Sequence record: OZ035785.1
DNA length: 64,000 nt
Source: Tequatrovirus BCH953P2
Direction: 5' to 3' (one strand)
The position numbers were made by a program, and so were the translations under genes. A model generated the notes under the pieces. It made no database searches. It was not told the origin of the DNA and worked only from the letters and a program-made list of their open reading frames with translations. Below, in pieces: positions 12,076-48,085 of the stretch (position 1 is the stretch's first letter; each line of letters opens with the position of its first letter).

Positions 12076-13889
12076 TGATGCTTAACCCTATGCATGATTT
12101 CTTTATTTTTACCGAGATTAAATCCGCGTTCGTTCGGGTTTCCAAGATATCCGCATGTTCTTCTTATTGTGTTCATCTTTTTAGGATCAGTTTCTCCACA
12201 AATAGAACAAACAAATCCGTTTTCAGTAGGAGTCATTTCATGGGTACTTCCGCATGTAAAACATTTATCTACTGGCATGTTAACACCAAAATAATCTAAA
12301 TGTTGTGCAGCATAATCCCATACGGCCTCAAGACCTTTTAAGTTATTTTTCATATCAGGAAGTTCAACATAAGAAATGTGACCACCTGTCGCAATGAAAT
12401 GATACGGCGCTTCACGAGAAATCTTTTCAAACGGAGTAATATTTTCTTCTACTGAAACGTGGAAACTGTTAGTGTACCAGCCTTTATCGGTAACATCTTT
12501 TACGCTTCCATATTTTTCTGTATCGAGTTTACAGAAGCGATAACAAAGGTTTTCAGCAGGAGTAGAATATAAACTAAAAGCAAATCCGGTTCTTTCAGTC
12601 CACTGTTTAAGATGAGCATTCATTTTAGTTAAAATTTCTCGTCCAATATCACGACCGACAAGAATATTCAATTCGTGAATACCAATGTATCCTAGGGACA
12701 CTGAACTTCTACCGTTTTTAAATAACTCAATTATGTCGTCATCAGGTTTAAGACGAACCCCGAATGCACCTTCTTGGTAAAGAATAGGAGCAACAGTAGC
12801 TTTAACTCCTTTTAAGGAACTAATTCTACACATCAAAGCTTCAAAACACAAATCCATTCGTTCATTGAATAATTCAACAAATTTCTGTTCATTGAACTGT
12901 GTTCCAATATAAGAATCTAACGCGATGCGAGGAAGATTCAATGTTACAACACCAAGATTATTACGTCCATCAAGAATTTCATTACCAGTCGAATCTTTCC
13001 ATACGCTCAAGAAACTACGGCAACCCATTGGAGAAACAGGAACAGATGAACCAGTGATAGCTTTATTGTTCTTAGCTGAAATAATATCAGGATACATCCT
13101 TTTGCTTGCACACTCTAGAGCAAGCTGCTTAATATCATAGTTCGGATCGTCTTTGTAAAGATTAACGCCTTCTTCGACGAACATAACAAGCTTAGGGAAA
13201 ATAGGAGTTATCCCATCACGACCAAGACCTTTAATACGATTTTTCAGAATTGCTTTCTGAATCATTCGTTCAGTCCAGTCAGTTCCCGTACCAAATGTAA
13301 TTGTTACAAAAGGTGTTTGCCCGTTTGAACTAAAGAGAGTATTTACTTCATATTCATAAGCTTGGAATGCATCGTATACGTCTTTTTCTGTTTTAGATTG
13401 AGCATAATTCAACGCATCAGCGATTTGCCATTTTTCTGCATCTTCAATATGTTTTGCATAGGTGCGTTTAACATAAGGAGAAAGTACTTTATCTACATTC
13501 GCAAAAGTCGTTCCGCCATATTGATGGGAAGCAACCTGTGCAGTAATTTGTGCCATAATTGCAGTAGCAACACCGATTGATTTAGGAGTTTCAATCTGTG
13601 CATTACCGAGCTTAAATCCGTTCTCAAGCATTCCTTTTAAATCTACTAAACAACAATTAGTAAAAGGCAATGATATACTGTAATCTAAATCATGAAAATG
13701 AATTAACCCGGCATTATGAGCATTTACAATATGACTTGGAAGAATACTGCAAGCGATATGTTTAGAAACAATACCGGCCATTAAATCTCTTTTTGTTGGA
13801 AAGACACGAGAATCTTTGTTGGCGTTTTCGGTATTTAATTCTTTATCTTTATTTGAAATAAAATTTAAAACATCTTTCTCTAAAGACAT
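12072..13889 (-). CDS. nrdD: Anaerobic ribonucleoside-triphosphate reductase NrdD, uninterrupted
   Basis: 605 aa continuous ORF; C-terminal glycyl-radical motif RRTCGYLG and zinc-ribbon cysteines CFTCGS...CSIC. Confidence 0.9.
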   Translation of the reverse strand: MSLEKDVLNFISNKDKELNTENANKDSRVFPTKRDLMAGIVSKHIACSILPSHIVNAHNAGLIHFHDLDYSISLPFTNCCLVDLKGMLENGFKLGNAQIETPKSIGVATAIMAQITAQVASHQYGGTTFANVDKVLSPYVKRTYAKHIEDAEKWQIADALNYAQSKTEKDVYDAFQAYEYEVNTLFSSNGQTPFVTITFGTGTDWTERMIQKAILKNRIKGLGRDGITPIFPKLVMFVEEGVNLYKDDPNYDIKQLALECASKRMYPDIISAKNNKAITGSSVPVSPMGCRSFLSVWKDSTGNEILDGRNNLGVVTLNLPRIALDSYIGTQFNEQKFVELFNERMDLCFEALMCRISSLKGVKATVAPILYQEGAFGVRLKPDDDIIELFKNGRSSVSLGYIGIHELNILVGRDIGREILTKMNAHLKQWTERTGFAFSLYSTPAENLCYRFCKLDTEKYGSVKDVTDKGWYTNSFHVSVEENITPFEKISREAPYHFIATGGHISYVELPDMKNNLKGLEAVWDYAAQHLDYFGVNMPVDKCFTCGSTHEMTPTENGFVCSICGETDPKKMNTIRRTCGYLGNPNERGFNLGKNKEIMHRVKHQ

Positions 13890-14701
13890 AATTCTAATTT
13901 ATCCTTTTGAAATTCTTCGTCTAAATATGGGTTCCAACCCATTTTAAACCTTTTGATGAAATTATCAATTCTAAATTTCGGTAAGTTTAAATCCGCAAAA
14001 ATAGATGATTTACTTTTAAAATCTGGACCTAAATAATCATATAAAATTTCTGCGTATTTTAACCATAATATATAAGTACCAGATTTAATTGCTCTCGGAG
14101 TTTTCCAAGGTTTTACACCATACATCGGATTTCCACTTCCTTTATGCCTGATAGAAGATGAAATTCCAATTTTAATTTTAGCTTCCTCTGTATGCGAAAA
14201 TCCATGATGTGGATTTTCTTTCCAATATTTTTTAGAAGCTTCTGATATTTTCTTTCTGGCTAAATTAGTATGATGCTTTCCATAAAATCCATGATTTTTA
14301 CCTTTATTACGATTTCTTTTAATCATGGTTATTGATTGCTTTTTTCTAGTTTCTTTAGAAGGAGAAACACCGTACGTTGTAAATTGACCATCAGCATATG
14401 CTAAATTAAAATACTCTTTATTCCATATATCTTTTTCTATATTCTTTTGAAATTCAGCTTCAATGCTAGTTATTTGCTCATCTCCGACTAATTGAAAATA
14501 TAATATTTCAACTTTCGGCGTTTCTTTCAACAGGGCTTTTTGAAATTCGGAAGATGACGAAGACGAATAATAAAATTTACCATTTTTATCAATAATATTC
14601 GTTCCGTCAAAAGCGCAATTAGTTTTACTTCCAATGTAATAATATGGCGGGGTTTTAGCATTAATTCTATTAATAAATGATAGTTTATATACTACATTCA
14701 T
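13880..14701 (-). CDS. Free-standing GIY-YIG homing endonuclease-like protein (seg-like)
   Basis: N-terminal GIY-YIG signature (VYKLSF...YYYIGSK); repeated NUMOD-like modules (GKNHGFYGKHHT, HHGFSHTEEAKIKIG, GSGNPMYG); overlaps nrdD start and gene 49 stop. Confidence 0.65.
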   Translation of the reverse strand: MNVVYKLSFINRINAKTPPYYYIGSKTNCAFDGTNIIDKNGKFYYSSSSSSEFQKALLKETPKVEILYFQLVGDEQITSIEAEFQKNIEKDIWNKEYFNLAYADGQFTTYGVSPSKETRKKQSITMIKRNRNKGKNHGFYGKHHTNLARKKISEASKKYWKENPHHGFSHTEEAKIKIGISSSIRHKGSGNPMYGVKPWKTPRAIKSGTYILWLKYAEILYDYLGPDFKSKSSIFADLNLPKFRIDNFIKRFKMGWNPYLDEEFQKDKLELCL

Positions 14702-15822: not shown

Positions 15823-16143
15823 TTATAGCGTAATCCATTCTCGTACTGTCTGAGTTACTACACGTTCTCGAAGCTCAACCAGTTCAACGGTAGGAACTGC
15901 ATAATACCAGTCAGAATGGTAAGAACCTGAGCGAGATTCATTTACGGAAACATATACGTAGTGTTTTGGGCTAAAGTAAATTACTCGACGATATTGGCAT
16001 TTGCCTTGTTGAGTCCATTCTTCGGATTCAATCTGAATAAGATAGTCGGAAAAATCGAAATCATAGTTTTCCGAAAATGCATCATGGTCTTCGATGATTT
16101 CGCTCAGAACTGCATCAACATCTAATTTATTTTCAATAGTCAT
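15823..16143 (-). CDS. Hypothetical protein (49.1 position)
   Basis: 106 aa ORF. Confidence 0.4.
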   Translation of the reverse strand: MTIENKLDVDAVLSEIIEDHDAFSENYDFDFSDYLIQIESEEWTQQGKCQYRRVIYFSPKHYVYVSVNESRSGSYHSDWYYAVPTVELVELRERVVTQTVREWITL

Positions 16144-16154
16144 TTTTTCACCAA

Positions 16155-16349
16155 TTAATTTCGCAATTTATTAAGTTCTTCATAATCAATCCAGGATTCT
16201 AATCCTGATGGCAAATCAGATTCAATTTCCCAAAGAAGTTCTTCAATTTTATGAAGACGATCTAATTCTTCAGCTGGAATAGTAACCATTGATGGAGTTC
16301 TTGATACACTAATATCGTAAATCATATTTACCCCAGCTTGACCATGCAA
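16155..16349 (-). CDS. Hypothetical protein (49.2 position)
   Basis: 64 aa ORF. Confidence 0.4.
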   Translation of the reverse strand: MHGQAGVNMIYDISVSRTPSMVTIPAEELDRLHKIEELLWEIESDLPSGLESWIDYEELNKLRN

Positions 16350-16543
16350 TCACCGTATTTCCACTTAGAAATAGACTTTTCACCATTAGAATAATAAACT
16401 TCGAGTTTAGCACGATTATTTTTAATTTGAATAACCTTGGCTGTCATCAAAGTTCCATACCCATAGTAAACTGCAACTTCATCACCTACATATACCGCGC
16501 TTCCGCGGTAGTCATGGATATAATCAGTTCCTTCGAGAATCAT
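16328..16543 (-). CDS. Hypothetical protein (49.3 position)
   Basis: 71 aa ORF; stop overlaps nrdC start. Confidence 0.4.
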   Translation of the reverse strand: MILEGTDYIHDYRGSAVYVGDEVAVYYGYGTLMTAKVIQIKNNRAKLEVYYSNGEKSISKWKYGDCMVKLG

Positions 16544-16803
16544 TTAAAGTATTCCCGCAATTGGTCAAATCCACCAATATGACTTCCATCAGGAGCAAAT
16601 ACCTGAGGCATCGTCAATCCGATTTGAGTATCACGACCTAGTTTAGTCAGAAGCTCAGCGATTTTCTCATCATCAAAAACACCTTTTTCCGGCATAATGT
16701 TGATAAATTCAAACGGCTGTTTCTTCACGGTCAAAAGACGTTTTGCATTATCGCAGTACACACATTTGTGGATGTTGCTATCATAACCATATACTTTAAA
16801 CAT
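16540..16803 (-). CDS. nrdC: Thioredoxin/glutaredoxin NrdC
   Basis: 87 aa, CVYC active site (MFKVYGYDSNIHKCVYCDNAKRLL). Confidence 0.85.
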   Translation of the reverse strand: MFKVYGYDSNIHKCVYCDNAKRLLTVKKQPFEFINIMPEKGVFDDEKIAELLTKLGRDTQIGLTMPQVFAPDGSHIGGFDQLREYFK

Positions 16804-16804
16804 A

Positions 16805-17062
16805 TTATTCCTTAATTCCTAGTACTTGTTTAAAAGTCTCGTCGTAATCAAGACTTTGGCCCGTTTGTTCTTTATGTTTGTATATAATATCACTTACTTC
16901 TGATAGCATATTTTTATATGAACGAGTTAAAGCAGATTTAAGCACGCTGTATCTATCAGGAAATTTACCATGTTCATAATAATAAGCTATTGCTAATTCG
17001 CGGACTGCCATTTCAGCAGTCTTCATATATTCTTTACGCTTTGTCATTTTCTTCTCGGTCAA
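16805..17062 (-). CDS. Hypothetical protein (nrdC.1 position)
   Basis: 85 aa ORF. Confidence 0.45.
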
Positions 17063-17348
17063 ATCGGTGTTTACAATGACGACATTTATAACGAAGATTA
17101 CTAGTCTGCCAATGAACTAATTGTACCTGTTCAGTACCACACTCAGGACAATTAGGAACGTTTTTAGAAGCCCTTTCACGACGTTCAACCATGACCATTA
17201 CAGAATCCCAATTAACAGGAGGGCTATAATCATCACAACCATGAATCTTTCCACGCATTTCCAGATCGTCTTCTTCACCAGCCATAATAATTTTAATTAG
17301 ACTAGAATTACTTGAAGCTGCAATGTCTTCTAATAGACGCTTTTTCAT
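17034..17348 (-). CDS. Zinc-ribbon protein (nrdC.2 position)
   Basis: 104 aa; paired cysteines CPECGTEQ...CRHCKHRF. Confidence 0.45.
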
Positions 17349-18274
17349 TTCAATACCTCAATAGCATTACGTAAACCATTTGCTTTTGCATTAAGAGCTT
17401 TTAACAATTTGGTGTGTTCTGCAATTTGGGCTTCAACTTCAATCAAACGAGCATTGAGATATTCGCGTTCTTCACTCAGATTATCAGCCTTTTCTGCTTT
17501 AGGTTCTTTTACAACTTGCTTATATGTATTAGGGTTCTTCAGTTTAATTAGAATGCGTGAACTGTACAGCATTGAACCATTATCTTCGGTTTCGTCATAC
17601 ATTTCCACTACGTCCATCATCTCCACCATCGTGCAGAGTTTATAAGACAACGAACGAATAATTTTGTTGTGCTTATTAATTTCTCTAGCTGTCATGGTGC
17701 CGAGATTACGTGAGTAATAATAAGGAACCTGGATATTAATTAATACTGATGAACCACCTGGCTTGTGTGTTACTTCATCAGCAATAACCCAATCCTTAAC
17801 ATGAACTGTATTTGTACGGTCATCGCCCGCGGTAAATAGTTTACGAGCATGCTTAAAAAGCATATTCACTTGGTCATTGAATTGACAAGCGAATTTATCA
17901 GCAAATTTAGTTTCGGGAATGGTAGATAACCAATCAGCCAAATGGGTCTTTTTAACATCGTTAACAATAGTAAATTCAACCAAATCGGTTATAGATGTCT
18001 CAGATTTAATGAAGCTCGGCTTCATAAAGTTTTTAATGTTATCACTAGCTACAGTAGAAGATAACAGACGAGAACGTTTAAACCATTGAAGCAAATTGCC
18101 TAACGAATGAGAATAAGCGTTTTGAGTATCTTTACAGATATGATTTTCCTGGCCAACATATTGAAGGAAATCACGAAGAATATTATTGATTACTGCTCTG
18201 TGTCCTATCTGATAATTACGATGTTTAGTAATAAGACTGTCAAAATAATCAATATAATGTTTACGAGTTTTCAT
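17345..18274 (-). CDS. Hypothetical protein with C-terminal coiled coil (nrdC.3 position)
   Basis: 309 aa, starts MKTRKH, ends in heptad-like segment [33 protein letters not shown]. Confidence 0.5.
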   Translation of the reverse strand: MKTRKHYIDYFDSLITKHRNYQIGHRAVINNILRDFLQYVGQENHICKDTQNAYSHSLGNLLQWFKRSRLLSSTVASDNIKNFMKPSFIKSETSITDLVEFTIVNDVKKTHLADWLSTIPETKFADKFACQFNDQVNMLFKHARKLFTAGDDRTNTVHVKDWVIADEVTHKPGGSSVLINIQVPYYYSRNLGTMTAREINKHNKIIRSLSYKLCTMVEMMDVVEMYDETEDNGSMLYSSRILIKLKNPNTYKQVVKEPKAEKADNLSEEREYLNARLIEVEAQIAEHTKLLKALNAKANGLRNAIEVLK

Positions 18275-18326
18275 GTTCTTCTCACTTTGTTAATGATTTG
18301 TACTCCGAGCCATCCTTGGCTTTAAA

Positions 18327-19328
18327 TTACTTAATTAACTGTAAAGCTTGTTCAAGACGATCCAAGCGATTAACAGATTCTTCCCAAATCCTTTTAGCCC
18401 GCTCATATTCTTTCTGCGCTTTATTAGAAATTTCTAGAACTTCTTTATAAGCTTTTTCTAGTGCAATAACTTCTGGACGAATTTCTATCGGTTCAGGTGA
18501 ATCATCAAGACATTCCATTAGTTCCTCAAGGGTAGTTTCTTCTTTAGGAGTATTCACAATTTCATCACATTTTTGTTGGTAAATTTCTTTATCAGTCGGT
18601 GAGTACGCGCACTTTACTTCACGAAGACTAATTACAATTTTATATCCTTCCCAACCGCATATATTCTTAAAAGGATAAGTATGAATATTTTCTACTGTTT
18701 CCATACAAAGTAATGCGGTCTCTAATTGACGAGTTATAGTGCTAGCAATTGAGAAAAATTTATTAATATTCTTTTGGTTAGTTTCTGGTGTAAAAAATCC
18801 ATAATTCACAAAAATAGATACTTTATTTTTATCAAGTTCATATTCTTTTATGATAATCATATCAGAAGCCAAAGGATGAATTTGACGATAATCGCCATAA
18901 CATAATTTAGAAGCTGATTTTAGAATCTGTCCTTTGAAAAGTCTGAAATTACTAATCCAACGACGAGTAAAAATATTCTCAGGGTCTTCTTTATTATTAA
19001 GATGATAAGAATTAACATCACCGAACCAATTATATCCTACTACATCTTTGGTTCGTTTAATTTCTTTCCCAAAATTACCAAGAATATCCCGATTAACCAA
19101 ATATGAAAGAAGACGAGACTCTTTAAAGGTTTTCTTGATAACATCTTTATCTACACGGCTAGAAATTTTACGAATTTCATGAATAAATTTAGCAGAAGAA
19201 ACAATACCTGCATCAACACTATTGAGCCATTGATTGATAATAGAAAGAACGCTATTTTGGCCAAACATCGGTATAGCTTTATCATCAATAACGCTATTGA
19301 ATGATTTGATATATTCGTTACGAGTCAT
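18327..19328 (-). CDS. Hypothetical protein with C-terminal coiled coil (nrdC.4 position)
   Basis: Start set at MTRNEY, preceded by GAGGAG; C-terminal coiled coil. Confidence 0.5.
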   Translation of the reverse strand: MTRNEYIKSFNSVIDDKAIPMFGQNSVLSIINQWLNSVDAGIVSSAKFIHEIRKISSRVDKDVIKKTFKESRLLSYLVNRDILGNFGKEIKRTKDVVGYNWFGDVNSYHLNNKEDPENIFTRRWISNFRLFKGQILKSASKLCYGDYRQIHPLASDMIIIKEYELDKNKVSIFVNYGFFTPETNQKNINKFFSIASTITRQLETALLCMETVENIHTYPFKNICGWEGYKIVISLREVKCAYSPTDKEIYQQKCDEIVNTPKEETTLEELMECLDDSPEPIEIRPEVIALEKAYKEVLEISNKAQKEYERAKRIWEESVNRLDRLEQALQLIK

Positions 19329-19366
19329 ATTAATCTCCTCAGTAGAAAGTAAGAACATTATACCAC

Positions 19367-19386
19367 ATCCTTGTGGCAAAGTAAAC
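19367..19386 (-). promoter_or_regulatory. Early sigma70-type promoter, short spacer
   Basis: Minus-strand GTTTAC and TATAAT but only 8 nt apart, so weaker than the others; upstream of the 18327..19328 start. Confidence 0.3.
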
Positions 19387-20411
19387 TAGTTCAGTGCATT
19401 TAGTGCATTGTTCAGTTTAGAACGTTGCTTTGTCAGATTTTGAACCCTTGACTGAGCTTGTTCTAACGCCTTTTCAGCTTCTAGCACTTCATTGGTCGCT
19501 TTAACGAGTTCATCATCTACTGCCTTAAGGGACTTCTCAATCGCATCCGCGTGCCATTTTTCAACAGGTTTAAGACTCGGATTTTCAATAGGAAGAAAAT
19601 TCACTTTATTGAATTTCCATGCATCCTTATTACCTGAACTATACATCCAAAATTTAGGATCGTTTGATAAGTAATTGGATAAATTTAAATTTAAGTTATC
19701 TTGTACTTCTTGCTTTTTCTCTTGCGGGACTTCGTCCTTTCTCAAAAAATCATATTTAAATGAAACGATCATATCAAGTTCATATGATGTTGTATCTAAC
19801 TTAAATCGTTCAAAACGAGGTAAAATCTTAGATTGAACAGCAGCAACAACATCCATATACTTAAATGCTTCTGTCAACTGTGATTTAAGGCATTCACAAA
19901 TTGAAAGAGAATTTTTTGTATTAGGCTTAAAGCTAATTCGTGCAGTTCTATTATTTTCTTTTAATGGTCTTACTTCCATTTGAAGAGTATAACCATCAAA
20001 TTTCAGATTCTTTAAGTTAATATCAGAACCTTTTAATCGACTAGCAGTAGACAAAATTTGCTTTAATTGTTTACGGAATAGAGCAATAAATCTCCATTCA
20101 AGACGATAATGATTTGGATTAAAAAATCCTGTTGATAAATCGACCTTACTCTGACCAACGCCTTGAACAAATAGAGGATTTTTATAATCAATAGTTTTAC
20201 AGAAATCGGTGAGCTGCTCACGAGCAGTCATTTGTGTAATATACCCCGCTTTACTAAAATGACGTAACCATTCACTGCTATTCATATACTTAAAGTGAAT
20301 ATCACGATTAACTTTATCAGGGTCTAAATTATTTTGGCACAAAAATGTCATAACATCACGAGTATAGCTGGCATTACGAACCATATCTTCAATTTGAGAA
20401 CGAGTTTTCAT
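19386..20411 (-). CDS. Hypothetical protein with C-terminal coiled coil (nrdC.5 position)
   Basis: 341 aa, starts MKTRSQ, ends LEAEKALEQAQSRVQNLTKQRSKLNNALNALN. Confidence 0.5.
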   Translation of the reverse strand: MKTRSQIEDMVRNASYTRDVMTFLCQNNLDPDKVNRDIHFKYMNSSEWLRHFSKAGYITQMTAREQLTDFCKTIDYKNPLFVQGVGQSKVDLSTGFFNPNHYRLEWRFIALFRKQLKQILSTASRLKGSDINLKNLKFDGYTLQMEVRPLKENNRTARISFKPNTKNSLSICECLKSQLTEAFKYMDVVAAVQSKILPRFERFKLDTTSYELDMIVSFKYDFLRKDEVPQEKKQEVQDNLNLNLSNYLSNDPKFWMYSSGNKDAWKFNKVNFLPIENPSLKPVEKWHADAIEKSLKAVDDELVKATNEVLEAEKALEQAQSRVQNLTKQRSKLNNALNALN

Positions 20412-20419
20412 AGTGTTCC

Positions 20420-21322
20420 TTAAGATTTAAGTAAATCAACAATTTTAATTAACTTTTCACGCTCAGATTTAGCTTTACTACTCAATCCAGATAGTCTGAA
20501 AATTTCATCGTCATATTGTTGAATAGAAATATTCAGCTCTTCAATTTGCTTATTAAAATAATCAATTTGTTCAGAATGTTTTTCGTTACTACGAACTGGT
20601 GCAGGTTTTGTAGGTAATTTAGTTGAACTGGATTCATCCGGGCGATAAATTAAAATACAACTTGAACCAATCGGACATTTAGCACCAGACACATATTCTA
20701 ATGTTCCAGCTTCTTTTAAAATTTCAAAAGCTAAACAGAGATGATGACACATATTGACATAATCTGTAGAGTGAGCTCTGACGTAATAATCATCTCCACG
20801 AGTGCTAAATTTAAAGCATTTAAGGTCTTCTGTATTATTAGTTTTAAAAATCATTTGTTTATCTAGACCTTTAGCTAATCGAGCGCCTAATGCTAATAAT
20901 CGTCGTTGATTTTCCCACAAATCTGCGATCATTTGGTCAAATGATAATTTTGGCATTAGTCGACCATAAAGGTCATATCCTTTATTATAATTGCGAAGAA
21001 TTTCACTCGCGTTAATGCGAGACAACGCTCCAATTTTATTAAGGGCTTTCATGATGCGATTAGATAAAAGCATTCCAGACCCGTTTGTTCGTTGTAAATG
21101 TTTTTCTAATCCAAATCCAATATCAACTTTAAACTTATCTAAAATTTCGGCGTGAACATCTTTATCAATAACATTTAAATTTAGTACTGGGTTAAATTTA
21201 TGAAAAAATTTATCTGACTCGTCGCGTTGAAGTACAGTCCATTCATTTGATTTTTTATTAACTAAAGATTTAATTACTGCATTGACATTATTAATTGCTA
21301 CTGACATATTTTCCTCACTCAA
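20420..21322 (-). CDS. Hypothetical protein with C-terminal coiled coil (nrdC.6 position)
   Basis: 300 aa; C-terminal coiled coil; start uncertain. Confidence 0.5.
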   Translation of the reverse strand: MSEENMSVAINNVNAVIKSLVNKKSNEWTVLQRDESDKFFHKFNPVLNLNVIDKDVHAEILDKFKVDIGFGLEKHLQRTNGSGMLLSNRIMKALNKIGALSRINASEILRNYNKGYDLYGRLMPKLSFDQMIADLWENQRRLLALGARLAKGLDKQMIFKTNNTEDLKCFKFSTRGDDYYVRAHSTDYVNMCHHLCLAFEILKEAGTLEYVSGAKCPIGSSCILIYRPDESSSTKLPTKPAPVRSNEKHSEQIDYFNKQIEELNISIQQYDDEIFRLSGLSSKAKSEREKLIKIVDLLKS

Positions 21323-21778: not shown

Positions 21779-22306
21779 TTATGCGAGTACCGTCTTTAAC
21801 CGTTCTTCAAACTTCCGAAGAGTGTTCTGGCGTTCAGCTCTTTGCTTTTTGTAAGTTTCAATACGCTCTGAAATGAGAGTGTATCGTTCATTTACTGATT
21901 CTTTCATAAAATCAGGAATTTCACGAGAAGCTTTAATCTCATCAAATTTATCAATAACAGCTTGCTCTTCAGCAATTAAGTTATCATACATCAAAATATC
22001 TTTCTTGATGAACTCAATATCTTCTTGAGTTACACGAGATAATTTAGATGCTTTATCCTTTTTGTACTGTTCGTTAGTATCACGAGACCAGTGTAATGTA
22101 CGATTTTTATTCGTATTCTTGTAAATTTCTACAATACCAATCTCATCAATAATAACGATCCAATTCCAACGGGATTTGTAAATTTGTCCTCCATCAACAG
22201 TGATTTCACCTCCGATTGAGATGTCATTAAAGAACTTGCTTTGTGCTTCAGATTTAAATTTACCATCGTTGTAATTTACCAGGTTGAAAATATCTTTAGC
22301 GTTCAT
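21779..22306 (-). CDS. Hypothetical protein (nrdC.8 position)
   Basis: 175 aa; early-promoter-like motif at 22335-22364 upstream. Confidence 0.45.
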   Translation of the reverse strand: MNAKDIFNLVNYNDGKFKSEAQSKFFNDISIGGEITVDGGQIYKSRWNWIVIIDEIGIVEIYKNTNKNRTLHWSRDTNEQYKKDKASKLSRVTQEDIEFIKKDILMYDNLIAEEQAVIDKFDEIKASREIPDFMKESVNERYTLISERIETYKKQRAERQNTLRKFEERLKTVLA

Positions 22307-23826: not shown

Positions 23827-23852
23827 ATAAAAAAGGGAGCCCGAAGGCTCCC
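23827..23852 (-). terminator. Rho-independent terminator after the nucleotidyltransferase gene
   Basis: Hairpin GGGAGCC-CGAA-GGCTCCC with a T tract on the minus strand (plus AAAAAA at 23827-23834). Confidence 0.6.
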
Positions 23853-23854
23853 TA

Positions 23855-43822: not shown

Positions 43823-44353
43823 TTAAACTTCTGCTATAATTTTTCCATCTTTTTCTACTTGAAAATACGTATAAGGAATCGTTGCAGTACATACTAAAGC
43901 TGGGTCTGAATCTTCCGTATAGCTAAATTCTACTTCAGATAGGTCAGAAACCCAAGGCTTATAAAAATTTATTGACATCACGATTTCAGTTTTGCTATTA
44001 TCTAAAATGTAAAGCGTAATGTACTCAGGACCTGTTTTTTGGGCAGTATTTTCACCTGTAAGATAGTTGCTAGTTCCTAGCATCCATTCATACATTCCTA
44101 TCCACGACTTAAGTTCTTCATCAACTATAAATCTCACGATGAGTGGATCGTACTCAAATGTAGCACCCGGTCGTTGTGCTCGACCTAGTCCAAACGGCCC
44201 AGTCACGGTATCAGTAACAGGTATTCTAATTCCTGGAATAGGAACTGACTGAGCATTTAAAGTAAAAGCAGATGTAGTATTACTGTGTGGTATTGATACT
44301 ACAAAGTTAGTTGTATTTGCTTGGTTAAAAATTTGTTGCAGAGCTTGCGACAT
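43823..44353 (-). CDS. 3: Tail completion / sheath terminator gp3
   Basis: 176 aa from MSQALQQIFNQANTTNFVVSIP; T4 gene order 1-3-2-4. Confidence 0.8.
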   Translation of the reverse strand: MSQALQQIFNQANTTNFVVSIPHSNTTSAFTLNAQSVPIPGIRIPVTDTVTGPFGLGRAQRPGATFEYDPLIVRFIVDEELKSWIGMYEWMLGTSNYLTGENTAQKTGPEYITLYILDNSKTEIVMSINFYKPWVSDLSEVEFSYTEDSDPALVCTATIPYTYFQVEKDGKIIAEV

Positions 44354-44459
44354 ATATTCCTCATAATGCTTTATAATTGTTGGTGGTATAATGGGTCTAA
44401 GTCCCTTCCATTCAATTCCATTTAGAAAAAACAACAGAAAAGAATGGAAGATAATAGAA

Positions 44460-45284
44460 TTAAATATTTGACCAGACTTTGTTTGCAGAGAAACGTTTTC
44501 CTTTTGAAACGAACTGCTGAAGTGGCATCAACACAACGTTCGCCCAGTCTTTCGGGGCGATTTCAACAAGGCTACCCATAATATTACCAGGTATATATGC
44601 CTTAATCATTTGGTCTGCACCCCTAAATCCTTTCACTTGACTCCAATCAATTTTTAATTTCGTTTTATTAGTAATAGTAGGTGTATTTGCATATTGCTTT
44701 AAAAGCTCTTCTAGGAATTGCTGACGAGCTTTAGGTGGAATATAGTGCAAGTTTAATCCGTACATTAAATTATGCTTACCTAAACCAAGGTAAATTATCA
44801 AAGGAAATTTATCCCAGTAAGGAAGAGTTTCCTTGTGTTTAGCATCATAAGCAAAAGCATATATTCGTCCCGGCTGCGGGCGAACAACTTTATGTCCTTT
44901 TACTTGCTTAATAGTTTCAGCAAACCACTTTCTGGTTTTATTATTAATTGCTGCACCTTCATTACGAATTTTATCGCGCAATGTTTGCCTGAATGAATTT
45001 ATCATAAGCAGTTGTCTTTCTTGCTTATTGAGTTTATTCATTGGTTTTGATTCAAGTTTTTGAATCTTTTCAGCCGTTTTAATTCCTGAAGCATATTTTG
45101 ACATTGCCGAAGTAAACGTGGAGTATTTGATTCCTCTTTCTTCAGCAAATTGCTTTCCTGTCATTCCTTTTGCTTTGGCCTTTTTATATTCAAGACCTAT
45201 TTGAATCCATTTCTTTTCGTTTAATGATTGCTTAACCTTTGGAACTTGGGGAGTGCTTTCATTAATTATTTGAAAAATAGCCAT
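44460..45284 (-). CDS. 2: DNA end-protector protein gp2
   Basis: 274 aa ORF in the T4 gene 2 position. Confidence 0.8.
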
Positions 45285-45736
45285 TATGCCCCCTTAAAGC
45301 CAAGAGCTCGTAATCCATCTTCTGTTAGAATTCTAAATTTTATTCCACGCTTTTCAGCTAAAGATTGCGCTGCTTTCCATTTGTCGGTATTAACGGAATA
45401 TGTATAAATTTCATTCATAAATCTTTTCTTCGCTGCGGTTGTTAGATGCGCTGGTTTAACTGGTGGTTGTGTTTCTTTTTTAGGTTTTATTTCAATAAAA
45501 AATTCTTGTCCAGAAGAATCTTTCATCCAAATATCCATGAAGTATCTACGTTTTTTCCCTTCTGCATTACAAAAATAAGGAATTACTGCTGTTTCACTAC
45601 CCCATGCAATAATTTCTGGATTTTTATCTAACCATTCAAAAAAGAATTTTTCCCAATTTGATCTATACGTAATTTTTTTAGGGTCACCTCTATACTTTGA
45701 TATATTTTTAGGAACCCATTTTCCAGAATATGCCAT
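45284..45736 (-). CDS. 4: Head completion protein gp4
   Basis: 150 aa; minus-strand late promoter 27 nt upstream. Confidence 0.8.
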
Positions 45737-45747
45737 TGGATTCTCCT

Positions 45748-45755
45748 TATAAATA
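45748..45755 (+). promoter_or_regulatory. Late promoter TATAAATA for gene 53
   Basis: Exact TATAAATA about 28 nt upstream of the gene 53 ATG. Confidence 0.7.
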
Positions 45756-45762
45756 GATAATA

Positions 45763-45770
45763 TATTTATA
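45763..45770 (-). promoter_or_regulatory. Late promoter TATAAATA (minus strand) for genes 4-2-3
   Basis: Plus-strand TATTTATA about 27 nt upstream of the gene 4 start; divergent partner of the gene 53 promoter. Confidence 0.65.
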
Positions 45771-45783
45771 AACAGGAGGGCCC

Positions 45784-46374
45784 ATGCTCTTTACATTTTT
45801 TGATCCGATTGAATATGCGGCCAAAACGGTGAATAAAAACGCGCCGACTATTCCTATGACAGATATTTTTAGAAACTATAAAGACTATTTTAAACGCGCT
45901 CTTGCGGGATACCGCTTACGTACTTATTATATCAAAGGTTCACCACGCCCGGAAGAATTAGCAAATACTATATATGGAAATCCACAGTTGTATTGGGTTT
46001 TATTGATGTGTAATGATAATTATGATCCGTATTATGGATGGATTACTTCGCAAGAAGCTGCTTATCAAGCATCTATACAAAAATACAAAAATGTAGGTGG
46101 AGACCAAATAGTATATCATGTGAATGAGAACGGTGAAAAATTTTATAATTTAATATCATACGATGATAATCCATATGTTTGGTATGATAAAGGTGATAAA
46201 GCTAGAAAATATCCTCAATATGAAGGAGCACTTGCTGCTGTTAATACGTATGAAGATGCTGTTCTTGAAAATGAAAAACTTCGTCAAATAAAAATAATAG
46301 CAAAATCAGACATTAATTCATTTATGAACGACCTTATACGTATAATGGAGAAATCTTATGGAAATGATAAGTAA
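45784..46374 (+). CDS. 53: Baseplate wedge protein gp53
   Basis: 196 aa; plus-strand late promoter TATAAATA at 45748-45755; first gene of the plus-strand baseplate block. Confidence 0.85.
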   Translation: MLFTFFDPIEYAAKTVNKNAPTIPMTDIFRNYKDYFKRALAGYRLRTYYIKGSPRPEELANTIYGNPQLYWVLLMCNDNYDPYYGWITSQEAAYQASIQKYKNVGGDQIVYHVNENGEKFYNLISYDDNPYVWYDKGDKARKYPQYEGALAAVNTYEDAVLENEKLRQIKIIAKSDINSFMNDLIRIMEKSYGNDK

Positions 46375-48085
46375 TAACCTTAATTGGTTTGTTGGTGTTG
46401 TTGAAGATAGAATGGACCCATTAAAATTAGGTCGTGTTCGTGTTCGTGTGGTTGGTCTGCATCCACCTCAAAGAGCACAAGGTGATGTAATGGGTATTCC
46501 AACTGAAAAATTACCATGGATGTCAGTTATTCAACCTATAACTTCTGCAGCAATGTCTGGAATTGGAGGTTCTGTTACTGGACCGGTAGAAGGAACTAAA
46601 GTTTATGGTCATTTTTTAGACAAATGGAAAACTAACGGAATTGTCCTTGGCACGTATGGTGGAATAGTTCGCGAAAAACCGAATAGACTTGAAGGATTTT
46701 CTGACCCAACCGGGCAGTATCCTAGACGTTTAGGAAATGATACTAACGTACTAAACCAAGGCGGAGAAGTAGGATATGATTCCTCTTCTAATATTATCCA
46801 AGATAGTAACCTAGACACCGCAATAAATCCCGATGATAGACCACTATCAGAGATTCCAACCGATGATAATCCAAATATGTCAATGGCTGAAATGCTTCGC
46901 CGTGATGAAGGATTAAGACTAAAAGTTTATTGGGATACCGAAGGATATCCGACAATTGGTATTGGTCATCTTATCATGAAGCAGCCAGTTCGTGATATGG
47001 CTCAAATTAATAAAGTTTTATCGAAACAAGTTGGTCGTGAAATTACAGGAAATCCAGGTTCTATTACAATGGAAGAAGCGGTAACTTTATTTGAACGTGA
47101 TTTAGCTGATATGCAACGTGACATTAAATCACATTCTAAAGTAGGACCAGTCTGGCAAGCTGTCAACCGTTCTCGTCAAATGGCGTTAGAAAATATGGCA
47201 TTTCAGATGGGTGTTGGCGGTGTAGCTAAATTTAACACAATGTTAACTGCTATGTTAGCAGGAGATTGGGAAAAAGCATATAAAGCCGGTCGTGATTCAT
47301 TGTGGTATCAACAAACAAAAGGCCGTGCATCCCGTGTTACTATGATTATTCTTACGGGAAATTTGGAATCATATGGTGTTGAAGTGAAAACCCCAGCTAG
47401 GTCTCTATCAGCAATGGCTGCTACTGTAGCTAAATCTTCTGACCCTGCTGATCCTCCTATTCCAAATGACTCGAGAATTTTATTCAAAGAACCAGTTTCT
47501 TCATATAAAGGTGAATATCCTTATGTGCATACAATGGAAACTGAAAGCGGACATATTCAGGAATTTGATGATACCCCTGGGCAAGAACGATATAGATTAG
47601 TTCATCCAACTGGAACTTATGAAGAAGTATCACCGTCAGGAAGAAGAACAAGAAAAACTGTTGATAATTTGTATGATATAACCAACGCTGATGGTAATTT
47701 TTTGGTAGCCGGTGATAAAAAGACTAACGTCGGTGGTTCAGAAATTTATTATAACATGGATAATCGTCTTCACCAGATAGATGGAAGCAATACAATATTT
47801 GTGCGCGGCGATGAAACTAAGACGGTTGAAGGTAATGGAACTATCCTAGTTAAAGGTAATGTTACCATTGTAGTTGAAGGTAATGCTGACATTACAGTTA
47901 AAGGAGATGCTACCACTTTAGTTGAAGGAAATCAAACTAATACAGTAAATGGAAATCTTTCTTGGAAAGTTGCTGGGACAGTTGATTGGGACGTTGGTGG
48001 TGATTGGACAGAAAAAATGGCATCTATGAGTTCTATTTCATCTGGTCAATACACAATTGATGGATCGAGGATTGACATTGGCTAA
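46358..48085 (+). CDS. 5: Baseplate hub / tail lysozyme gp5
   Basis: 575 aa; central lysozyme domain MAEMLRRDEGLRLKVYWDTEGYPTIGIGHL parallels the e lysozyme; C-terminal VxGxxxxxV beta-helix repeats. Confidence 0.95.
   Translation: MEMISNNLNWFVGVVEDRMDPLKLGRVRVRVVGLHPPQRAQGDVMGIPTEKLPWMSVIQPITSAAMSGIGGSVTGPVEGTKVYGHFLDKWKTNGIVLGTYGGIVREKPNRLEGFSDPTGQYPRRLGNDTNVLNQGGEVGYDSSSNIIQDSNLDTAINPDDRPLSEIPTDDNPNMSMAEMLRRDEGLRLKVYWDTEGYPTIGIGHLIMKQPVRDMAQINKVLSKQVGREITGNPGSITMEEAVTLFERDLADMQRDIKSHSKVGPVWQAVNRSRQMALENMAFQMGVGGVAKFNTMLTAMLAGDWEKAYKAGRDSLWYQQTKGRASRVTMIILTGNLESYGVEVKTPARSLSAMAATVAKSSDPADPPIPNDSRILFKEPVSSYKGEYPYVHTMETESGHIQEFDDTPGQERYRLVHPTGTYEEVSPSGRRTRKTVDNLYDITNADGNFLVAGDKKTNVGGSEIYYNMDNRLHQIDGSNTIFVRGDETKTVEGNGTILVKGNVTIVVEGNADITVKGDATTLVEGNQTNTVNGNLSWKVAGTVDWDVGGDWTEKMASMSSISSGQYTIDGSRIDIG

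What the first reader, a model, noticed from the sequence alone, without database searches (positions are those of the whole stretch)
17345..21322. Four consecutive 300-350 aa proteins each ending in a coiled coil
Seen in sequence: ORFs 17345..18274, 18327..19328, 19386..20411 and 20420..21322 are similar in length, three begin M-(K/T)-T-R, and all end in a ~35-residue heptad-like segment rich in L, A, K, E, Q and N. Inference: a tandem paralogue array of unknown function; diversified arrays in phage early regions often act on host targets.
Basis: seen in the sequence. Interest (0 to 1): 0.45.

Follow-up and report, generated by a model that had tools for sequence, protein, structure and literature searches.

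The report
Tandem coiled-coil anti-defence gene family
The four genes are the T4-type early genes nrdC.3 to nrdC.6: very diverged copies of one phage-only protein (a variable head, a floppy linker and a conserved coiled-coil tail), one of which (nrdC.5) is already known to switch off the bacterial Dsr1 immune protein, so the other three are good candidates for new immune-evasion factors.

Summary
The window is a T4-like (Tequatrovirus) genome, and the four minus-strand ORFs are nrdC.3, nrdC.4, nrdC.5 and nrdC.6. Their C-termini rank 1, 2, 3 and 5 of 70 window ORFs for heptad character. AlphaFold2 gives single 48- and 50-residue terminal helices for NrdC.4 and NrdC.6.

They are true but old paralogues. 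NrdC.3 and NrdC.4 match directly (E 2e-7). With the coiled coil trimmed off, an A+B profile matches NrdC.5 (HHalign 92.9%, P 4e-7) and an A+B+C profile matches NrdC.6 (77%, P 2e-5). The NrdC.4 and NrdC.6 models hit the same uncharacterised proteins of other T4-like phages, and nothing in the PDB.

Function is known for one member only: T4 nrdC.5 overcomes the Dsr1 sirtuin defence (Srikant et al. 2022). The neighbours 49.2 (anti-OLD) and nrdC.1 (anti-Septu) make this an anti-defence island. All four genes are non-essential in T4. Copy number varies from 1 to 4, with deletions, frameshifts and in-frame chimeras. Heads evolve fast while tails are conserved.

Best reading: a modular family of immune-sensor inhibitors. 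The mechanism, and the targets of nrdC.3, nrdC.4 and nrdC.6, are inferred, not shown.

The parts
17345..18274 (-). nrdC.3 (protein A, 309 aa): family member, phrog_1435
   Evidence: ORF; T4 annotation; PHROG 1435 E 2.7e-115; homologous to NrdC.4
18327..19328 (-). nrdC.4 (protein B, 333 aa): family member, phrog_1435 / PF26897; ATG start with GAGGAG RBS
   Evidence: AlphaFold2 model pLDDT 83.7
19386..20411 (-). nrdC.5 (protein C, 341 aa): DUF7235 / phrog_2351; orthologue (95.5% identical over residues 1-332) of the T4 gene shown to overcome Dsr1
   Evidence: Pfam PF23882 E 1.8e-121; tblastn to T4 95.5%; function in T4: PMC9391042
   Evidence: AlphaFold2 model pLDDT 78.2
17348..17476 (-). NrdC.3 C-terminal heptad helix (about residues 267-309)
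   Evidence: heptad score rank 3 of 70; register; 86% identical to the T4 allele where the body is 58%
18330..18476 (-). NrdC.4 C-terminal helix (residues 285-333)
   Evidence: AlphaFold2 helix 285-332; rank 2 of 70; tail 59-69% against body 35-38% identity in distant orthologues
19389..19565 (-). NrdC.5 C-terminal heptad helix (about residues 283-341)
   Evidence: best heptad score in the window, 0 of 200 shuffles reach it; tail 64% against body 37% in P0057
20423..20575 (-). NrdC.6 C-terminal helix (residues 245-295)
   Evidence: AlphaFold2 helix 245-294; rank 5 of 70; tail dN/dS about 0 against body 0.14
19357..19385 (-). promoter-like site TTTACT-17-TATAAT (with TG) in the nrdC.5/nrdC.4 intergenic gap; resembles a T4 early promoter
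   Evidence: consensus scan only; the total number of sites in the region is not above the shuffle expectation, so this is a lead, not a finding
15823..17047 (-). context: 49.2 (15823-16143), nrdC (16540-16803) and nrdC.1 (16805-17047); 49.2 and nrdC.1 are reported anti-OLD and anti-Septu genes in T6/T4
   Evidence: ORFs; T4 map; PMC13096335; bioRxiv 10.1101/2025.11.20.689424

Best explanation
The region is the T4-type early-gene array nrdC.3-nrdC.4-nrdC.5-nrdC.6: four anciently duplicated, strongly diverged copies of one protein family restricted to T4-like phages. Each protein has a head of about 220-245 residues (N-terminal helices plus an alpha/beta core: long helix, beta-hairpin, helix, beta-hairpin). 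This is followed by a 20-50 residue flexible linker and a 45-50 residue amphipathic heptad helix that ends at the C-terminus. Proposed mechanism (inferred): the proteins are made early in infection. The tail makes paralogue-specific homo-oligomers that display several heads. Each head binds and blocks a different host immune protein. For NrdC.5 the target is the Dsr1 sirtuin NADase, most likely by occupying its sensor before the late-made capsid protein can trigger it. What is shown: gene identity, paralogy, architecture, non-essentiality in T4, anti-Dsr1 activity of the T4 orthologue, fast-evolving heads and constrained tails. What is inferred: oligomerisation, direct binding, and anti-defence roles for NrdC.3, NrdC.4 and NrdC.6.
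For: Identity: 98.5% DNA identity to a Tequatrovirus and collinear with T4 nrdC.3-nrdC.6. Paralogy: (coil-free profiles: A+B vs C 92.9%, P 3.7e-7; A+B+C vs D 77%, P 2e-5; reversed controls score about 15-16; unrelated window ORFs score at most 24). The B and D models share nine BFVD hits, and 9 of 9 secondary-structure elements map. Architecture. Function: T4 nrdC.5 expressed from a plasmid restores plating of a T4 deletion mutant on Dsr1-carrying cells (PMC9391042); the window protein is 95.5% identical over residues 1-332. Island context: 49.2 anti-OLD, nrdC.1 anti-Septu, pin. Accessory behaviour: all four are non-essential in T4. Copy number is 1-4, with frameshifts, deletions, an internal duplication and in-frame chimeras. 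dN/dS is 0.14-0.28 against 0.01-0.10 for nrdC, nrdC.1, nrdC.8-nrdC.11 and pin. Tails are 1.5-2.5 times more conserved than heads within orthologue groups but only 7-19% identical between paralogues. Dsr1 senses major capsid protein through a dedicated sensor domain (PMC13581612), which makes sensor blocking plausible.
Against: No experiment links nrdC.3, nrdC.4 or nrdC.6 to any defence system, and the one HIDEN-SEQ comparison I saw shows no effect for them (q = 1). The mechanism of NrdC.5 against Dsr1 is unpublished in the searched library; it could be indirect. Oligomerisation was not tested. dN/dS is below 1 everywhere, so positive selection is not demonstrated. Frequent loss could also mean dispensability rather than an arms race. 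The extent of the deletion in the mutant rescued by nrdC.5 is not given in the text I read.
Confidence: 0.6

Rival explanations
1. Only NrdC.5 is an anti-defence protein. NrdC.3, NrdC.4 and NrdC.6 share its scaffold but do something else early in infection (for example binding host housekeeping proteins for takeover), or are redundant or decaying copies.
For: No phenotype is reported for them. They are often deleted, frameshifted or fused in viable phages. The heads are so diverged (A-D and B-D have no pairwise sequence signal) that functions may differ.
Against: Gene-wide dN/dS of 0.14-0.28 and strongly constrained tails argue for maintained function. Each type is kept in 553-741 phage genomes. 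They lie in an island where three other genes have proven anti-defence roles.
Confidence: 0.22
2. The four tails assemble with each other into one hetero-oligomeric complex, so the array encodes subunits of a single machine rather than four independent inhibitors.
For: The tails have the same length and the same heptad register measured from the C-terminus. The genes are adjacent and on the same strand. A natural in-frame NrdC.6-head/NrdC.4-tail chimera exists in a deposited phage genome.
Against: Related phages carry 1, 2 or 3 members in different combinations. Klebsiella, Enterobacter and Acinetobacter phages have one copy. nrdC.5 alone from a plasmid is enough to rescue. The tails are only 7-19% identical between paralogues but highly conserved within each, which is the pattern expected for avoiding cross-pairing.
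Confidence: 0.08
3. The four proteins are unrelated, and the similar C-terminal coiled coils arose by convergence or are compositional chance.
For: BLASTP finds only the A-B pair. An exhaustive HMMER search with an A+B profile did not retrieve C- or D-type proteins. They are filed in three PHROGs and three Pfam families.
Against: Coil-free profile-profile matches are far above the reversed and unrelated controls. B and D share Foldseek hits, and their secondary-structure elements correspond. A, B, C and an Acinetobacter homologue share the N-terminal M(K/T)TR motif.
Confidence: 0.03

Closest known systems
T4 NrdC.5 (anti-Dsr1 accessory protein; Pfam DUF7235, PF23882)
   Same: Protein C is its orthologue (95.5% identical over residues 1-332, same position, full-length Pfam match). 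A, B and D are remote paralogues with the same head-linker-helix plan.
   Different: Only the T4 protein was tested, and only genetically. A, B and D belong to other sequence families (phrog_1435/PF26897, phrog_2257/PF26899) and have no known target.
DSAD1, the SPbeta-phage inhibitor of the DSR2 sirtuin defence
   Same: It works like the proposed model: a phage protein that binds the sensor region of a defence sirtuin and prevents activation by a phage structural protein (abstracts listed).
   Different: No sequence match between C and any PDB chain. No significant match of the B model in the PDB fold library. I did not check that DSAD1 chains are in these PDB copies. Different phage group, and no coiled-coil tail is known to me. 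This is analogy only.
T4 anti-defence islands (dmd-tifA-adfA 'anti-TA island'; 49.2 anti-OLD; nrdC.1 anti-Septu)
   Same: Clusters of small, non-essential early genes that each neutralise one host defence and are gained, lost or amplified by recombination.
   Different: Those genes are unrelated singletons. Here four neighbours are diverged copies of one larger (about 300 aa) modular protein.
Uncharacterised 300-375 aa proteins of other T4-like phages (e.g. BFVD A0A7G3KGN9 of Enterobacter phage IME523, A0A0A0PZG4 of Pectobacterium phage PM2, E5E4A1/E5E4A2 of Acinetobacter phage Acj61)
   Same: Same predicted fold at full length (Foldseek E 1e-4 to 3e-8 for both the B and D models). In the genomes I fetched, a protein of the same size class with a C-terminal heptad helix sits next to nrdC.
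   Different: Only 10-16% identical. One or two copies rather than four. No function known.

Membership tests
Pfam DUF7235 (PF23882) = NrdC.5 family | Full-length match to the family HMM above the gathering score (30 bits) | tested here: met
   Protein C: 405.8 bits, E 1.8e-121, residues 1-341 on profile positions 1-307 of 307. A, B and D do not match this model.
T4 NrdC.5 anti-Dsr1 function | Orthology to the tested T4 gene (high identity, same genomic position) | tested here: met
   95.5% identity to T4 over residues 1-332; position between nrdC.6 and nrdC.4 as in T4.
T4 NrdC.5 anti-Dsr1 function | Restores phage growth on Dsr1-carrying cells | not testable with these tools
   Shown only for the T4 allele, by plasmid complementation (PMC9391042).
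PHROG 1435 (NrdC.3/NrdC.4) | Significant full-length match to the PHROG profile | tested here: met
   A: E 2.7e-115; B: E 3.8e-168. C hits phrog_2351 and D hits phrog_2257 instead.
One NrdC.3-NrdC.6 superfamily (proposed here) | Homology of the globular heads independent of the coiled coil | tested here: met
   Coil-trimmed HHalign: A-B 98.6%; A+B vs C 92.9% (P 3.7e-7); A+B+C vs D 77.1% (P 2e-5); reversed controls score 15-16. The D link is weaker by sequence.
One NrdC.3-NrdC.6 superfamily (proposed here) | Same three-dimensional fold | tested here: inconclusive
   Met for B and D: both models share nine Foldseek hits and 9 of 9 secondary-structure elements map. B also hits a 308-aa BFVD model from Yersinia phage fPS-65, probably an NrdC.3-type protein judging by its length (A0A449C4K0). 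No model could be made for C or A, and no direct B-D superposition was possible.
Coiled-coil proteins | Uninterrupted helix with a 3-4 hydrophobic repeat over at least 4 heptads | tested here: met
   Helices 285-332 (B) and 245-294 (D) in AlphaFold2; heptad ranks 1, 2, 3 and 5 of 70; shared register.
Coiled-coil proteins | Actual oligomerisation through the helix | not testable with these tools
   Only monomer predictions were available.
DSAD1-like anti-DSR proteins | Sequence or fold similarity to DSAD1 | tested here: not met
   No PDB sequence hit for C or for the B and D profiles. No significant PDB fold hit for B. I did not confirm that DSAD1 chains are present in these PDB copies.
Thioredoxin / glutaredoxin (the label many GenBank records give these genes) | Match to a thioredoxin-fold family | tested here: not met
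   No thioredoxin or glutaredoxin family in Pfam or NCBIfam for any of the four. The label is carried over from the neighbouring nrdC gene name.

The most novel reading that the evidence does not exclude
The NrdC.3-NrdC.6 proteins, with their one- or two-copy relatives next to nrdC in other T4-like phages, are a modular family of immune-sensor blockers. A paralogue-specific, conserved coiled-coil stalk oligomerises a rapidly evolving head. Each paralogue neutralises a different bacterial defence protein (NrdC.5 acts on Dsr1), and heads and tails can be recombined in nature. That would give three unassigned anti-defence proteins in T4 itself and a new fold for immune evasion.
Probability: 0.3. 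Interest if true: 0.65.

Novelty: new member of a known kind. Interest (0 to 1): 0.45.

Why it matters
T4 is the best-studied lytic phage, yet these four genes (about 4 kb) are still annotated as hypothetical or wrongly as 'thioredoxin'. Three things follow from showing that they are one family with a defined head-linker-coiled-coil plan, and that one member is the known anti-Dsr1 gene. First, NrdC.3, NrdC.4 and NrdC.6 become specific, testable candidates for inhibitors of other defence systems. Second, there is now a structural frame (which part is variable, which is constrained) for working out how NrdC.5 stops Dsr1. [quoted passage not shown]

Tried and rejected
1. My first HHalign and hmmsearch runs gave an odd non-collinear match between NrdC.5 (259-318) and NrdC.3 (127-190). 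This was an artefact. The NrdC.5 profile contained P0056, a natural NrdC.5/NrdC.3 fusion protein. All later profiles exclude it.

2. An exhaustive HMMER search of 1.84 billion representatives with an A+B profile found only 9 proteins and no C or D types. HMMER alone cannot join the families.

3. The PDB fold search for NrdC.4 gave nothing significant (best E 0.044, TRAPP Bet3, TMq about 0.17). PDB sequence searches gave only designed helical repeats on residues 11-71, or nothing. NCBIfam gave only far-sub-threshold hits.

4. I tested whether NrdC.8 (rank 4 heptad C-terminus) is a short fifth member. HHalign gives P 0.03-0.4, so this is not supported.

5. I tried to identify a BFVD representative of NrdC.5 through Yersinia phage fHe-Yen9-01. 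That phage is a Tegunavirus with a different layout, so this was uninformative.

6. Aeromonas, Cronobacter and Vibrio T4-like loci anchored on NrdC.10 are not syntenic here, and no clear member was seen.

7. The promoter scan is not enriched over shuffles (38 against 31.2 ± 5.6). Individual sites are leads only.

8. There are no long DNA repeats between the paralogues, so no sign of recent duplication or gene conversion.

9. The conditional tables in the HIDEN-SEQ supplement were not read in full. The one comparison I saw shows no effect.
Full report
**What the region is.** The window is a T4-like phage genome. The 3,978-bp region is 98.5% identical to Escherichia phage vB_EcoM_PTE-Eco15, and 650 phage records match it, nearly all Tequatrovirus and relatives. 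All genes here are on the minus strand. Comparison with the annotated T4 record identifies the four ORFs as nrdC.3 (17345-18274, 309 aa), nrdC.4 (18327-19328, 333 aa), nrdC.5 (19386-20411, 341 aa) and nrdC.6. Many GenBank records label these genes 'thioredoxin'. That label comes from the neighbouring nrdC gene name. No thioredoxin-type family matches any of them.

**Check of the observation.** The sizes and the N-termini (MKTR, MTR, MKTR; the fourth is MSVA) are as described. I scored the last 35 residues of all 70 ORFs of at least 100 aa in the window for heptad character. The four proteins rank 1, 2, 3 and 5; rank 4 is NrdC.8, two genes upstream. For NrdC.5, no shuffle out of 200 reaches the observed score. 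Aligned from the C-terminus, positions that are hydrophobic in at least three of the four proteins follow a 3-4 spacing over most of about 44 residues, in a single register. AlphaFold2 models built on family alignments give one unbroken terminal helix for NrdC.4 (285-332; mean pLDDT 83.7) and NrdC.6 (245-294; mean pLDDT 78.2). In each case the helix follows a low-confidence linker. Whether the helices actually form coiled coils (oligomers) could not be tested.

**Are they paralogues?**
- BLASTP finds only one pair, NrdC.3-NrdC.4 (E 2e-7, 26% over 226 residues). PHROGs also puts these two in one family (phrog_1435), with NrdC.5 in phrog_2351 (Pfam DUF7235) and NrdC.6 in phrog_2257.
- An exhaustive HMMER search of 1.84 billion representative proteins with an NrdC.3+NrdC.4 profile found only nine proteins, none of the NrdC.5 or NrdC.6 type.
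- An early non-collinear NrdC.5-NrdC.3 match was an artefact. My first NrdC.5 profile contained P0056, a natural NrdC.5/NrdC.3 fusion.
- I rebuilt the profiles without P0056, enriched them with divergent orthologues from Mosigvirus and Dhakavirus, and trimmed off the coiled coil. HHalign then gives A-B 98.6%, B-C score 37.3 (P 1.6e-4), A-C 28.4 and C-D 29.4. Reversed-profile controls score 12.6-17.7, and 13 unrelated window proteins score a mean of 13-16 with a maximum of 24.
- Merging the established relatives makes the result clear. A+B against C gives 92.9% probability, P 3.7e-7, with 228 collinear columns. A+B+C against D gives 77.1%, P 2e-5, with 212 collinear columns. The reversed controls score 15.5-16.
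- Structure agrees. The NrdC.4 and NrdC.6 models, searched separately against BFVD, hit the same nine uncharacterised proteins of 304-374 aa from T4-like phages of Enterobacter, Pectobacterium, Acinetobacter, Erwinia, Klebsiella, Yersinia and Serratia (E 3e-8 to 2e-3).
- The B-D sequence alignment is not significant by score. It still places all nine of B's secondary-structure elements from helix 61-69 onward onto elements of the same type in D's independent model.
- I conclude that the four are old, strongly diverged paralogues. The link to NrdC.6 rests more on structure, and the link to NrdC.5 rests only on profiles, because no model could be made for it.

**Architecture.** The head has N-terminal helices and then a core: a long helix carrying the shared motif (NrdC.4 RRWISNFRLFKGQILKSAS, NrdC.5 EWRFIALFRKQLKQILSTAS), a beta-hairpin, a helix and a second beta-hairpin. 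A linker of 20-50 residues with low confidence follows, then the terminal helix. The NrdC.4 model has no significant match among solved structures (best E 0.044), and no profile or sequence matches a PDB chain meaningfully. As far as these libraries show, the head is a fold known only from T4-like phages.

**What is known about function.** Full-text searches found no paper on nrdC.3, nrdC.4 or nrdC.6 beyond genome lists. For nrdC.5 there is direct genetic evidence. A T4 deletion mutant could not plate on E. coli ECOR17, or on MG1655 carrying the ECOR17 dsr1 gene, and expression of T4 nrdC.5 from a plasmid restored plating. The authors call it an uncharacterised early gene (Srikant, Guegler and Laub 2022, PMC9391042). 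The window protein is 95.5% identical to T4 NrdC.5 over residues 1-332.
- Dsr1 is a sirtuin NADase whose sensor domain, shared with Avs7, recognises phage major capsid proteins (PMC13581612).
- The neighbourhood holds other counter-defence genes: 49.2 inhibits OLD (PMC13096335), nrdC.1 inhibits Septu (bioRxiv 10.1101/2025.11.20.689424), and pin is annotated as a protease inhibitor, with other records naming host Lon as the target.
- In the HIDEN-SEQ transposon data, nrdC.3 to nrdC.6 are all classed non-essential in T4 (insertion saturation of at least 96%).

**Evolutionary behaviour.**
- Distribution: tblastn finds NrdC.3, NrdC.4, NrdC.5 and NrdC.6 types in 653, 553, 581 and 741 phage records respectively, against 1,309 records for the conserved neighbour NrdC.10.
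- Copy number by lineage: Tequatrovirus typically has four. Mosigvirus has three (NrdC.6-like, NrdC.5-like and NrdC.3-like). Dhakavirus JS98 has three (NrdC.6, an NrdC.5-like orf86, and NrdC.4).
- Single-copy lineages: Klebsiella (Jiaodavirus), Enterobacter (Karamvirus) and Acinetobacter (Lazarusvirus) phages each have one protein of 324-343 aa with a C-terminal heptad helix just upstream of their nrdC-type redoxin gene. The Klebsiella protein matches the A+B+C profile at 95.4%.
- Erosion within Tequatrovirus: a frameshifted nrdC.4; a deletion in ACG-C40 that leaves only nrdC.6 intact; loss of nrdC.6 in Pinarejo; an 83-residue in-frame duplication in Sf25; the NrdC.5/NrdC.3 fusion P0056, joined at 6-8 nt microhomologies; and an intact in-frame NrdC.6-head/NrdC.4-tail chimera in Salmonella phage Manna.
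- No long DNA repeats link the paralogues, so the duplications are old.
- Selection: pairwise dN/dS among seven Tequatrovirus genomes is 0.14-0.28 for the four genes. It is 0.01-0.10 for nrdC, nrdC.1, nrdC.8, nrdC.9, nrdC.10, nrdC.11 and pin. The variable neighbours nrdC.2 (0.23) and nrdC.7 (0.33) are as high as the array genes. Tails are lower than heads (NrdC.4 0.09 against 0.21; NrdC.6 0.00 against 0.14).
- Head versus tail: in distant orthologues the tail is 1.5-2.5 times more conserved than the head (for example NrdC.4 59-69% against 35-38%). Between paralogues the tails are only 7-19% identical.

**How it most likely works.** Shown: four homologous early-region, non-essential genes; a head-linker-helix plan; one member that defeats Dsr1; fast heads and constrained, paralogue-specific tails; frequent gain and loss. 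Inferred: the tail forms paralogue-specific homo-oligomers, and divergence of the tails after duplication would prevent cross-pairing. These oligomers present several heads, and each head binds a particular host immune protein. For NrdC.5 the simplest model is early occupation of the Dsr1 sensor, so that the late-made capsid protein cannot activate the NADase. This is analogous to DSAD1 blocking DSR2 (abstracts), but there is no sequence or fold relationship to DSAD1. I give this overall picture about 0.6.

**Rivals.**
- Only NrdC.5 is anti-defence and the others do something else or are decaying (0.22).
- The tails build one hetero-complex (0.08). This is disfavoured by the variable copy number, by the single-copy lineages, and by rescue with nrdC.5 alone.
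- The proteins are unrelated and the tails are convergent (0.03). This is contradicted by the coil-free profile matches and the shared fold hits.

**Novelty and verdict.** The genes themselves and the anti-Dsr1 role of nrdC.5 are known. I could not find the following in the searched literature: that nrdC.3 to nrdC.6 form one family with relatives next to nrdC in several genera of T4-like phages; the modular head/conserved-tail pattern; and the natural chimeras. I rate it a new member of a known kind (phage anti-defence accessory proteins), of moderate interest (0.45). It is not surprising in principle, but it turns three 'hypothetical' T4 genes into concrete candidates and gives a frame for the Dsr1 mechanism.

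Noticed in passing
window 21779-22306 (-), nrdC.8: NrdC.8 (175 aa) also ends in a heptad-like helix (rank 4 of 70 C-termini). A 175-aa Klebsiella phage protein appeared weakly in both fold searches. HHalign shows no similarity to the four families (P 0.03-0.4).
   Followed up: yes
window 17345-18274 (-) compared with L001 4001-4927 (T4), L007 and L008: nrdC.3 exists as two deeply diverged alleles within Tequatrovirus (60% amino-acid identity; linker 19%, tail 86%), while most other genes of the region are 90-100% identical. This looks like allelic replacement or strong diversification. nrdC.2 next to it is also unusually variable (58-79%, different lengths).
   Followed up: partly
window 13880-14701 (-): A 273-aa ORF between gene 49 (endonuclease VII) and nrdD carries a NUMOD3 homing-endonuclease motif. 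It is present in L002 and L007 but absent from L004 and L008, so it is probably a mobile homing-endonuclease gene.
   Followed up: partly
L019 3715-4752 (Salmonella phage Manna); P0056; P0121 (Shigella phage Sf25): Natural rearrangements inside the array: an in-frame NrdC.6-head/NrdC.4-tail chimera joined at a shared DEI; an NrdC.5/NrdC.3 fusion joined at TTCAAT/AAGTGAAT microhomology; and an 83-residue in-frame duplication in NrdC.6.
   Followed up: yes
window 17345-18274 (-), residues 30-86 of NrdC.3: Weak sub-threshold match of the N-terminal helices to the N-terminal region of XerD-type tyrosine recombinases (NCBIfam E 0.0015, 17.9 bits against a cut-off of 279). Probably chance; not seen by Foldseek for NrdC.4.
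   Followed up: no
window 23834-23853 (both strands): A strong GC-rich hairpin (8 bp stem, 6 GC pairs) with a T-run on the minus strand lies immediately after the nrdC.11 stop. It is likely an intrinsic terminator, and a TTTACA-17-TACTAT promoter-like site follows at 23803-23775 upstream of nrdC.10.
   Followed up: no
window about 44000-48000: GC skew changes sign near 46 kb (negative before, positive after), consistent with a switch in the direction of transcription between gene blocks.
   Followed up: no
window 15823-16143 (-) and 16805-17047 (-): These are homologues of 49.2 and nrdC.1, recently reported as inhibitors of the OLD and Septu defence systems (in T6 and T4 respectively). 49.2 was not detected in some related loci (L002, L007, L008).
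   Followed up: partly
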